DNA of 32,000 bases from Candidatus Hermodarchaeota archaeon (lineage in GTDB: Archaea > Asgardarchaeota > Heimdallarchaeia > Hodarchaeales > Hodarchaeaceae). Under the pieces are notes generated by a model that had not been told where the DNA came from, searched no databases, and saw nothing but the letters and a program-made list of their open reading frames with translations. The stretch spans positions 90,947-122,946 of the forward strand of contig JBHLKY010000008.1 of assembly GCA_048886185.1 (NCBI GenBank), read 5' to 3'. The first letter of the stretch is position 1. The number at the start of each line of letters is the position of its first letter. Position numbers and translations under genes: made by a program. Shown here piece after piece: positions 19,981-23,773 of the stretch.

Positions 19981-20057
19981 GGGCCGGTGGTCTAGCTCGG
20001 TATGACGGCTGCCTCACACGCAGCAAATCACTAGTTCAAATCTGGTCCGGCCCACCA
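19981..20057 (+). tRNA. tRNA-Val(CAC), intronless, CCA encoded
   Basis: Acceptor stem GGGCCGG/CCGGCCC; anticodon arm GCTGC-CTCACAC-GCAGC; T-loop TTCAAAT; ends ACCA. Confidence 0.97.
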
Positions 20058-23509: not shown

Positions 23510-23531
23510 AATGAAAAAAGGATAGAAAAAA
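23510..23531 (-). terminator. Oligo-T tracts downstream of the permuted 5S precursor
   Basis: Minus strand reads TTTTTTCTATCCTTTTTTCATT directly after the 3' arm. Confidence 0.55.
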
Positions 23532-23540
23532 CTTTTGATT

Positions 23541-23571
23541 GCGCCTAATAGTTAGGAATCTCTGTTTCCGG
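23541..23571 (-). repeat. 3' processing arm of the permuted 5S precursor
   Basis: Minus CCGG-AAA-CAGAGATTC...TATTAGGCGC, complementary to 23688-23715. Confidence 0.85.
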
Positions 23572-23685
23572 GTTCGGAATGAGACCGGGTGTAACCCAGG
23601 CCCTTTGGCCGAGCAATACTCAGCTTTTCGATTTTCCCGATGGCTCGCGCACAACAGTACAGACCGAAACGGAACCTAACTTAAC
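23566..23685 (-). rRNA. rrf: Circularly permuted 5S rRNA gene: 3' half (23685-23617) precedes 5' half (23615-23566)
   Basis: 5' half UGCUCGGCCAAAGGGCCUGGGUUACACCCGGUCUCAUUCCGAACCCGGAA carries the conserved loop C; 3' half begins GUUAAG. Helix I UGCUCGGC/GCUGAGUA, helix II CCUGG/UUAGG, helix V UUUCGGU/AUCGAAA, helix IV with GCGA tetraloop; 120 nt in total. Confidence 0.92.
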
Positions 23686-23687
23686 TT

Positions 23688-23715
23688 CCGGCAGAGATTC
23701 GCAGGTTATTGGCGC
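23688..23715 (-). repeat. 5' processing arm of the permuted 5S precursor
   Basis: Minus GCGCCAATA...GAATCTCTG-CCGG; pairs with 23541-23571 (9-bp perfect helix plus outer GC helix). Confidence 0.85.
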
Positions 23716-23765
23716 ACAACAGATGTAGTTGCAGCTACAACCTGATAGGAGCGCATTCAAGAGTC

Positions 23766-23773
23766 TTTAAATA
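23766..23773 (-). promoter_or_regulatory. TATA box for the 5S precursor (TATTTAAA)
   Basis: Position predicts a start site near 23742-23746, upstream of the 5' arm. Confidence 0.55.

What the first reader, a model, noticed from the sequence alone, without database searches (positions are those of the whole stretch)
23541..23715. Terminal arms form a BHB-like splice motif whose cleavage and ligation would restore the exact 5S sequence
The 5' arm GAAUCUCUG-CCGG-AAG and the 3' arm CCGG-AAA-CAGAGAUUC pair as a 9-bp outer helix, a 3-nt AAA bulge, a 4-bp central helix (self-complementary CCGG, from a 6-nt CCGGAA duplication at both ends) and a second bulge or loop (AAG; relaxed, BHL-like inner side). 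Archaeal splicing endonuclease (EndA) cuts after the second nucleotide of each bulge. Here that gives ...CCCGGAA (to 23566) and GUUAAG... (from 23685), and RtcB-type ligation would give CCCGGAA|GUUAAG, the canonical 5S sequence, in a 120-nt circle. An outer GCGCC-AAUA/UAUU-A-GGCGC helix extends the stem. Inference: 5S maturation here would use the tRNA-intron splicing machinery, as in permuted tRNAs and archaeal 16S/23S pre-rRNA circularization.
Basis: partly seen in the sequence, partly recalled or inferred. Interest (0 to 1): 0.92.

Follow-up and report, generated by a model that had tools for sequence, protein, structure and literature searches.

The report
Permuted 5S rRNA spliced into ring
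This Asgard (Hodarchaeales-type) archaeon encodes its only 5S ribosomal RNA with the two halves swapped, between arms that form a tRNA-intron-type cut signal, and environmental RNA contains exactly the predicted 120-nt rejoined ring, which explains why 5S genes seemed to be missing from these relatives of eukaryotes.

Summary
On the minus strand of 23541-23715 lies a circularly permuted 5S rRNA: 3' part, helix I closed by a 3-nt loop, then 5' part. Its arms form a 9-bp outer helix, a 4-bp CCGG/CCGG helix, a 3-nt AAA bulge and an AA(G) bulge, which is the layout of a relaxed bulge-helix-bulge (BHB) motif. Cuts after the second bulge nucleotide give a 120-nt core (23685..23566) whose ligation restores CCCGGAA|GUUAAG.

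- **Covariation:** all 11 outer-helix pairs show compensatory changes across 30 loci (86% paired, against 36-44% when slid).
- **Distribution:** in 151 phylum genomes, families with the permuted gene lack a canonical 5S, and the reverse.
- **Enzymes:** the genome encodes catalytic-type and structural-type EndA paralogs and one RtcB.
- **RNA:** contigs from two metatranscriptome studies carry the predicted junction. One is a 150-nt closed unitig (120+30) that also spans the helix I cap.

Not shown: the enzymes acting, the exact cut positions (6-nt CCGGAA ambiguity), and whether the ring is the mature ribosomal form.

This scan had already noted the same arrangement on other DNA, in at least 64 genomes. 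No paper in the searched library describes it.

The parts
23766..23773 (-). Putative archaeal TATA box (UAUUUAAA) of an independent transcription unit, about 80 nt upstream of the 5' cut
   Evidence: The AATATTTAAAG / TATATAAAG block with following GACTCTTGAA is conserved at the same distance in 14 same-genus loci. Promoter function is inferred.
23707..23715 (-). 5' strand of the extended outer processing stem (GCGCC-AAUA)
   Evidence: It pairs with 23541-23550 in the MFE fold. Relatives have different but complementary sequences here (read by eye, not counted).
23692..23700 (-). 5' strand of BHB outer helix H1 (GAAUCUCUG)
   Evidence: Nine Watson-Crick pairs with 23556-23564. Covariation is shown.
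23688..23691 (-). 5' strand of the central 4-bp helix (CCGG), a copy of the helix III 5' strand
   Evidence: It pairs with 23568-23571. It changes together with the helix III 3' strand in G021, G006 and G028.
23685..23687 (-). 5' bulge AAG; predicted cut between 23686 and 23685
   Evidence: BHB geometry. The RNA junction is consistent with it, but ambiguous over 6 nt.
23566..23685 (-). Circularly permuted 5S rRNA core, 120 nt: 3' part 23685-23625, helix I with AUU cap 23624-23608, 5' part 23607-23566
   Evidence: Rfam partial matches in permuted order. Rotated alignment to canonical Asgard 5S. Covariation in helices I, II, IV and V. A 150-nt circular RNA unitig covers exactly this span.
23568..23571 (-). 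3' strand of the central 4-bp helix (CCGG); in the mature fold it is the 3' strand of 5S helix III
23565..23567 (-). 3' bulge AAA; predicted cut between 23566 and 23565
   Evidence: A 3-nt bulge sits at this place in 26 of the 30 phylum-wide loci as read by the script. The other four are the f3 loci L093, L097, L098 and L101, where the script gave doubtful solutions.
23556..23564 (-). 3' strand of BHB outer helix H1 (CAGAGAUUC)
23541..23550 (-). 3' strand of the extended outer stem (UAUU-A-GGCGC)
23514..23531 (-). Two U6 runs (23531-23526 and 23519-23514), a likely archaeal oligo-U terminator
   Evidence: T-runs lie at the same place in same-genus loci. Function is inferred.

Best explanation
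The locus is the single 5S rRNA gene of a Hodarchaeales-type Asgard archaeon, encoded in circularly permuted order and transcribed from its own promoter on the minus strand.

The proposed pathway has four steps.

1. Leader and trailer pair into a long stem whose inner end is a relaxed bulge-helix-bulge motif. It consists of a 9-bp helix, a 4-bp CCGG/CCGG helix, an AAA bulge on the 3' strand and an AA(G) bulge on the 5' strand.
2. The tRNA-splicing endonuclease, here a two-paralog EndA of the alpha2-beta2 type, cuts in both bulges and releases a 120-nt RNA (23685 down to 23566).
3. RtcB joins the ends of that RNA and recreates the canonical CCCGGAA-GUUAAG segment between helices III and II.
4. 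Once the arm is removed, the 3' CCGG is free to pair inside the 5S as helix III.

The product is closed both at the new junction and at the helix I cap, so it is a ring.

Shown here: the gene order, the structure and its covariation, the presence of the enzyme genes, and a ring-shaped RNA with the predicted junction. Inferred: which enzymes act, the exact cut positions, and that the ring rather than a re-opened form sits in the ribosome.
For: - **Permuted order:** Rfam partial matches lie in swapped order, and the rotated core aligns colinearly with canonical Asgard 5S.
- **Only 5S in the genome:** no other 5S was found in this 96%-complete genome.
- **Geometry:** the BHB is built from 13 Watson-Crick pairs, and the conformer lies only 2.9 kcal/mol above the MFE.
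- **Outer helix covariation:** in 24 sequences, 82.6% of cells are paired and 8 of 11 pairs show double changes, against 29-48% paired when slid. In 30 phylum-wide sequences, 86.1% are paired and 11 of 11 pairs show double changes, against 36-44% when slid.
- **Central helix:** it is kept with different sequences, including CUGG/CCAG and the non-palindromic CGUG/CACG, and every lineage's predicted junction restores GGAAGUUAAG-type sequence.
- **Enzymes:** one EndA paralog is most similar to crenarchaeal catalytic subunits and the other to structural or epsilon-type subunits; there is one RtcB.
- **RNA, run X1:** a 150-nt contig equals 120 nt plus a 30-nt k-1 overlap. It maps 23610->23566 and then 23685->23581, so it contains both the ligation junction and the helix I cap.
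- **RNA, run X2 (a different study):** two contigs end at 23691 and continue with the letters of 23572-23584, which is the same junction.
- **Distribution:** permuted and canonical 5S genes are mutually exclusive by family in 151 genomes.
- **Literature:** Wu et al. 2022 state that 5S genes could not be predicted in closed Heimdall-group genomes (PMC8813620).
Against: - No enzymology was done, and the contigs come from near relatives (about 97% and 94% identical), not from this strain.
- The CCGGAA duplication means any equal shift of both cuts within 6 nt gives the same ring, so the cut sites are not pinned (column 'both' = 6).
- The central helix competes with 5S helix III and with local hairpins, and it is absent from the MFE and RNAalifold predictions.
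- In 9 of 24 relatives the central pair next to the 5' bulge is A.C.
- With a 3-nt 5' bulge there is no inner helix, so the motif is relaxed rather than strict.
- Contigs cannot show abundance or molecule ends, so a later re-opening is not excluded.
Confidence: 0.85

Rival explanations
1. The ring is only an intermediate. After BHB cutting and ligation, an unknown nuclease opens the helix I cap (AUU loop, 23617-23615) to give a linear 5S with canonical ends. Permuted tRNAs are re-opened in this way by RNase P and tRNase Z, and circular pre-16S/23S rRNAs are re-linearised.
For: There is precedent: permuted tRNA genes (own knowledge: Soma et al. 2007), and re-linearisation of circular pre-rRNAs (PMC10515664; PMC12918454). 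Contigs cannot exclude a linear major form.
Against: The cap is only a 3-nt loop with no spacer. In other lineages it is a UUCG- or CUCG-type tetraloop or an extended regular hairpin, which suggests selection for a stable closed helix end rather than a cleavage spacer. At a mean word depth of only about 8, both the cap and the junction were assembled into one closed unitig. By inference, neither is rare among these molecules. The permuted SRP RNA of Thermoproteus stays circular (PMC4731332).
Confidence: 0.3
2. The leader-trailer stem is an ordinary processing stem cut by other nucleases. The ends are then joined by another ligase (for example an Rnl3/Pab1020-type RNA ligase) or by low-level circularisation of the kind seen for canonical 5S rRNAs. 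On this reading the BHB likeness is incidental.
For: Minor circular 5S species without a BHB are reported in Sulfolobus, Pyrococcus and Halobacterium (PMC12558985; preprint 10.64898/2026.03.23.713588). The central helix is imperfect in some relatives.
Against: Here ligation is required to make a 5S fold at all. The 4-bp helix and the 3-nt bulge sit at a fixed distance from the junction across lineages that have unrelated arm sequences. The central-helix arm changes in step with its 3' partner. The junction is exact in two studies, unlike the variable ends reported for degradation-type circles.
Confidence: 0.07
3. The locus is a decayed or rearranged 5S pseudogene, or an assembly artefact, and the real 5S gene is in the unassembled 4% of the genome.
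For: The genome is a 75-contig draft, 96% complete.
Against: The same arrangement occurs in 20 of 21 same-genus genomes, three of them single-contig, and in about 20 families. All helices covary. A promoter and terminator are conserved. RNA of this sequence exists. No canonical 5S was found in any of these families.
Confidence: 0.01

Closest known systems
Permuted, circular SRP RNA of Thermoproteus tenax / T. uzoniensis (Plagens et al. 2015, PMC4731332)
   Same: It is an essential ncRNA gene with swapped halves. Leader and trailer form a BHB that is cut by a heterotetrameric, relaxed-specificity splicing endonuclease. Ligation restores a functionally important region, and the product is a stable circle.
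   Different: The RNA here is a ribosomal RNA. The arrangement spans about 20 families of a phylum rather than a few species. Cleavage and protein binding were shown experimentally for the SRP RNA and not here.
Circularly permuted tRNA genes (Cyanidioschyzon merolae; own knowledge, Soma et al. 2007, cited within PMC4267664)
   Same: The 3' half lies before the 5' half, there is a BHB at the transcript termini, and a circular intermediate is made by the splicing machinery.
   Different: tRNA circles are re-opened at an intervening spacer by RNase P and tRNase Z. Here the native ends are joined by a 3-nt loop with no spacer.
BHB-mediated circular pre-16S/pre-23S rRNAs, and circular or permuted 23S in archaeal ribosomes (PMC10515664, PMC7758197, PMC12918454)
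   Same: There is a leader-trailer processing stem with a BHB, EndA cleavage, and ligation of the rRNA ends.
   Different: Those genes are colinear with the mature RNA, and ligation joins the native ends. These papers treat 5S as not processed in this way. Here ligation is needed to create an internal segment of the fold.
Permuted mitochondrial 5S rRNAs (Valach et al. 2014, PMC4267664)
   Same: The 5S rRNA order of elements is permuted relative to the canonical molecule.
   Different: Those are organellar, with no BHB and no splicing-endonuclease pathway. The paper was identified only by title and abstract and was not read in detail.

Membership tests
BHB/BHL substrates of the archaeal splicing endonuclease | Central helix of 4 base pairs | tested here: met
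   CCGG/CCGG forms 4 Watson-Crick pairs. Across 24 relatives 88.5% of cells are paired, and one pair shows compensatory UA. The pair next to the 5' bulge is A.C in 9 of 24. In other lineages the helix is CGUG/CACG.
BHB/BHL substrates of the archaeal splicing endonuclease | At least one 3-nt bulge flanking the 4-bp helix, with bulges on opposite strands (definition as given in PMC4731332) | tested here: met
   The 3' strand has AAA between the central helix and H1. The 5' strand has AA(G) on the other side of the central helix.
BHB/BHL substrates of the archaeal splicing endonuclease | Strict hBHBh' form: two 3-nt bulges and helices on both sides | tested here: inconclusive
   The outer helix is present (9 bp). 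An inner helix of 3 bp exists only if the 5' bulge is read as 2 nt; with a 3-nt bulge there is none. CGUG-type lineages show the strict form, with 3-nt bulges and a 3-bp inner helix.
BHB/BHL substrates of the archaeal splicing endonuclease | Cleaved by EndA at the bulges and joined by RtcB | not testable with these tools
   Only the genes and the ligated product are shown.
5S rRNA (Rfam RF00001) | Genomic sequence reaches the family's gathering score of 38 bits | tested here: not met
   The two partial matches score 20.8 and 17.9 bits. This is expected for a permuted gene.
5S rRNA (Rfam RF00001) | Colinear sequence and the helix I-V fold after rotation or circularisation | tested here: met
   The rotated core aligns end to end with six canonical Asgard 5S rRNAs at 55-68% identity. 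Helices I, II, IV and V show compensatory changes, and helix III matches model positions 27-51. A covariance-model score for the rotated sequence could not be computed with these tools.
Permuted ncRNA genes restored by circularisation | Circular RNA with the junction predicted from the BHB | tested here: met
   The X1 contig is a closed 120-nt cycle, and two X2 contigs carry the same junction. The two runs belong to two studies. These are contigs from near relatives, not raw reads of this strain.
Permuted ncRNA genes restored by circularisation | The circle is the functional, ribosome-bound form | not testable with these tools
   This needs RNase R or northern analysis, end mapping, or a ribosome structure.

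The most novel reading that the evidence does not exclude
In most Asgard lineages, including the Hodarchaeales group closest to eukaryotes, the 5S rRNA inside the ribosome is a covalently closed 120-130-nt ring. It is made by the tRNA-splicing endonuclease and RtcB from a permuted gene. On this reading, ribosome assembly in these organisms depends on the tRNA-splicing machinery.
Probability: 0.5. Interest if true: 0.95.

Novelty: new variant of a known kind. Interest (0 to 1): 0.88.

Why it matters
5S rRNA is a universal ribosome component, and it is normally the easiest RNA gene to find. Its apparent absence from closed Heimdall-group genomes has been noted in print (PMC8813620).

This locus explains that absence. 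The gene is permuted and needs cutting and rejoining to fold.

It would make 5S rRNA a third class of permuted RNA gene rescued by the splicing machinery, after tRNAs and one SRP RNA. It would be by far the most widespread of the three, found in about 20 families of the phylum sample in exclusive alternation with canonical genes.

Several consequences follow.

- It predicts a circular rRNA in the ribosomes of the closest archaeal relatives of eukaryotes.
- It ties ribosome biogenesis to EndA and RtcB.
- It gives annotators a concrete model for finding the gene.
- It offers a discrete character for Asgard phylogeny.

Tried and rejected
- **Rfam at gathering threshold.** It found no 5S in the window or the genome. 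Only E-value mode showed the two halves.
- **Unconstrained folding.** The MFE fold and RNAalifold form the outer helix but pair the 5' CCGG elsewhere. Thermodynamic prediction alone therefore does not give the central helix. A constrained fold was needed.
- **RNA coverage of the arms.** No contig covers 23541-23565 or 23692-23715 in X1 or X2. This is not used as evidence, because contigs cannot show absence.
- **Word shares of the runs.** The shares were small (0.29 and 0.14). Habitat names are therefore not interpreted beyond the run labels ('sediment' and 'wetland').
- **A possible nested intron.** The 29-nt insertion in the permuted 5S of G001 and G016 was checked for a BHB by folding and by eye. 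None was found.
- **Automatic BHB search in family f3.** For genus g8 (L093, L097, L098, L101) the script gave implausible solutions. By eye their outer helix is short or weak, so these loci are not counted as support.
- **Literature searches.** 'Permuted 5S rRNA', 'circular 5S rRNA', and 5S combined with Asgard, Heimdall, BHB or circularisation found no description of an archaeal permuted 5S. The library lacks most subscription journals.
- **Naming the other families.** The anonymous families (for example the 1.4-Mb closed genome in f8) could not be named with the tools left.

Full report
**What is in the sequence.**
The feature lies on the minus strand. Reading 5' to 3':

- a conserved TATA-like box at 23773-23766;
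- a leader;
- an outer stem strand, GCGCC-AAUA (23715-23707);
- GAAUCUCUG (23700-23692);
- CCGG (23691-23688);
- AAG (23687-23685);
- a 120-nt core running down to 23566;
- within the end of that core, CCGG (23571-23568);
- AAA (23567-23565);
- CAGAGAUUC (23564-23556);
- UAUU-A-GGCGC (23550-23541);
- two U6 runs (23531-23526 and 23519-23514).

**It is a permuted 5S rRNA.**
Rfam at its gathering threshold finds no 5S in the window or in the whole 4.84-Mb, 96%-complete genome. In E-value mode, 5S model positions 27-51 match 23590..23566, and positions about 52-120 match 23685..23615. The 3' part therefore precedes the 5' part.

The native ends are joined in a helix I hairpin (23624-23608) with a 3-nt AUU loop. 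When the core is rotated to start at helix I, it aligns end to end with six canonical Asgard 5S rRNAs at 55-68% identity. The shared blocks include CACACCCGG..CCGAACCCGGAAGUUAAG, GUACUG and GGGAA.

Across 24 homologous loci, helices I, II, IV and V all show compensatory changes. The genome holds one copy.

**The arms form a BHB-type motif.**
In the canonical tRNA-intron motif, strand 1 reads outer helix, 4-bp helix, bulge. Strand 2 reads 4-bp helix, bulge, outer helix. The cut falls after the second bulge nucleotide. This can be derived from the 37/38 intron position and is established knowledge. PMC4731332 defines a BHB as a central 4-bp helix flanked by at least one 3-nt bulge.

The locus has exactly this order, and all 13 pairs are Watson-Crick. 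The predicted cuts, 23686|23685 and 23566|23565, release 23685..23566. Joining the ends gives CCCGGAA-GUUAAG, which is the canonical 5S sequence.

The 5' bulge can be read in two ways. It is either AAG with no inner helix, or AA followed by a 3-bp inner helix (G23685-C23572, U23684-A23573, U23683-A23574). The motif is therefore relaxed rather than strict.

The unconstrained MFE fold forms the outer helices but uses the CCGG copies differently. Forcing the BHB costs 2.9 kcal/mol (-66.9 against -69.8). The 3' CCGG is also the 3' strand of 5S helix III, so the BHB and the mature fold are alternative conformers. Removal of the arm frees helix III.

**Conservation and covariation.**
The same gene is found in 20 of 21 same-genus genomes and in other families of the class.

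- In 24 sequences the outer helix is 82.6% paired, with double changes at 8 of 11 pairs. The central helix is 88.5% paired. Sliding the partner by 1-3 columns drops pairing to 29-48%.
- A covariance model of the permuted gene plus outer helix finds full-length matches of 50-168 bits in about 20 families of a 151-genome phylum sample.
- In 30 diverse loci, all 11 outer-helix pairs show double changes. Pairing is 86.1%, against 36-44% when slid.
- The central helix is kept with other sequences. In G021 and G006 it is CUGG/CCAG. In several other families it is the non-palindromic CGUG/CACG, with 3-nt bulges on both strands and a 3-bp inner helix. In every lineage the predicted junction rebuilds GGAAGUUAAG-type sequence, giving rings of 120-131 nt.

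One family (f3, genus g8) has a weak outer helix and was not counted as support.

**Distribution.**
On the same 151 genomes, a canonical 5S over Rfam's cut-off occurs in f11 (25/26), f17 (17/19), f20 (3/5), f15, f27 and f28. It occurs in none of the families with strong permuted matches, except for one marginal 38.4-bit hit in f7.

Weak model matches in f11, f17 and f20 overlap their canonical genes. A pattern scan of named species genomes returns MAGs labelled Candidatus Hodarchaeota or Heimdallarchaeota, including closed genomes CP070665, CP070695 and CP070760. Wu et al. [quoted passage not shown]

**Enzymes.**
The genome encodes two proteins carrying both splicing-endonuclease domains.

- One (206 aa) is most similar to the catalytic subunits of Aeropyrum pernix and Sulfolobus tokodaii EndA (E = 3e-41). 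By my reading of the alignment it keeps the Tyr/His/Lys motifs.
- The other (212 aa) is most similar to ARMAN-2 and M. kandleri EndA and to the N. equitans structural subunit. It lacks the His at the corresponding place (read by eye).

This suggests an alpha2-beta2 enzyme, the class with the most relaxed BHB recognition (PMC4731332). One RtcB is present.

**RNA evidence.**
Two metatranscriptome runs from different studies hold words of this stretch. Both are stored as Logan contigs.

- Run X1 contains a 150-nt contig whose letters 1-45 lie on 23610->23566 and letters 46-150 on 23685->23581. This is a 'goes back 120' joint at 23685|23566 with 3 mismatches. A length of 150 equals 120 + 30, which is what a closed 120-nt cycle gives at k = 31. 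The contig spans both the ligation junction and the helix I cap.
- Run X2 contains two contigs that run to 23691 and continue with GTTCGGAATGAGA, the letters of 23572-23584. This is the same junction, in a relative about 94% identical.

A canonical gene could not give a molecule that is closed at both places. Both places were assembled at a mean word depth of only about 8. I infer from this that the doubly closed form is not a rare species, but contigs cannot prove abundance.

The joint is ambiguous over 6 letters because of the CCGGAA repeat. The product is confirmed; the exact cut positions are not.

**Comparison with what is known.**
The closest analogue is the permuted SRP RNA of Thermoproteus, which is circularised at a BHB by a heterotetrameric endonuclease and works as a circle (PMC4731332). 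Permuted tRNA genes use the same first steps but are re-opened afterwards. Archaeal pre-16S and pre-23S rRNAs are circularised at BHBs, and recent work reports circular or permuted 23S in ribosomes (PMC7758197, PMC12918454). Those papers describe 5S as not processed in this way.

Low-level circular species of canonical 5S, without a BHB and with variable ends, are known and are read as intermediates or decay products. Permuted 5S rRNAs are reported for mitochondria (PMC4267664).

No paper in the searched library describes a permuted archaeal 5S gene. Earlier rounds of this scan noted the same arrangement on other DNA in at least 64 genomes, one of them with ring-shaped RNA. Those notes were treated as leads, and the claims used here were re-tested.

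**Verdict.**
The interpretation, BHB-directed excision and ligation that restores the 5S, is supported at about 0.85.

Whether the ring is the mature ribosomal form is open, at about 0.5. In its favour are the minimal or tetraloop-type helix I caps across lineages, the single closed unitig at low depth, and the SRP RNA precedent. Against it stand the re-opening seen for permuted tRNAs and pre-rRNAs and the lack of read-level data.

Noticed in passing
L082:1501-1685 (G001) and L023 (G016), same genus: Their permuted 5S carries a 29-nt insertion in the loop C / helix III region, with a duplicated UCAUUCCG, giving a predicted 149-nt ring. No BHB was evident, so this may be an expansion or an unusual intron.
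   Followed up: partly
L035:1500-1740 (G028:C1 about 2590506-2590745), closed genome of family f3: This second permuted 5S copy has a 9-bp outer helix (CUAAUGGCA/UGCCAUUAG) separated from the central helix by a roughly 31-nt extra hairpin on the 5' strand. It is a three-way-junction variant of the motif.
   Followed up: partly
Loci L093, L097, L098, L101 (family f3, genus g8): These permuted 5S genes score well on the model, but their outer helix is short or mismatched by eye. The BHB may be degenerate or built differently in this genus.
   Followed up: no
G139 (family f7): C77:3907-4046, C106:1-140, C90:1-134, C132:1-134: Four permuted 5S matches lie mostly at contig ends, and a marginal canonical-order Rfam hit (38.4 bits) overlaps one of them. 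These may be tandem or multi-copy permuted genes that break the assembly.
   Followed up: no
G023:C798:1536-1644 and G006:C310:995-1109: Canonical 5S genes (about 80 bits) sit on roughly 2.5-kb contigs in two MAGs that have 6-7% contamination. G006 also carries the permuted gene. These are probably foreign contigs.
   Followed up: no
L066 (DATKZI010000026.1, 256-kb contig labelled Candidatus Bathyarchaeia): It carries an f4-type permuted 5S with an 11-bp outer helix. Either the public label or the binning is probably wrong.
   Followed up: no
window 23725-23738 (minus strand): A small leader hairpin (GUAG-CUGCAA-CUAC) lies between the putative transcription start and the outer stem. Its stem is kept (up to 6 bp), with differences in the loop, in the closest relatives (L004-L006).
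   Followed up: no
window 19981-20057 (+): A tRNA-Val(CAC) gene, the only Rfam family match in the window at gathering threshold.
   Followed up: no
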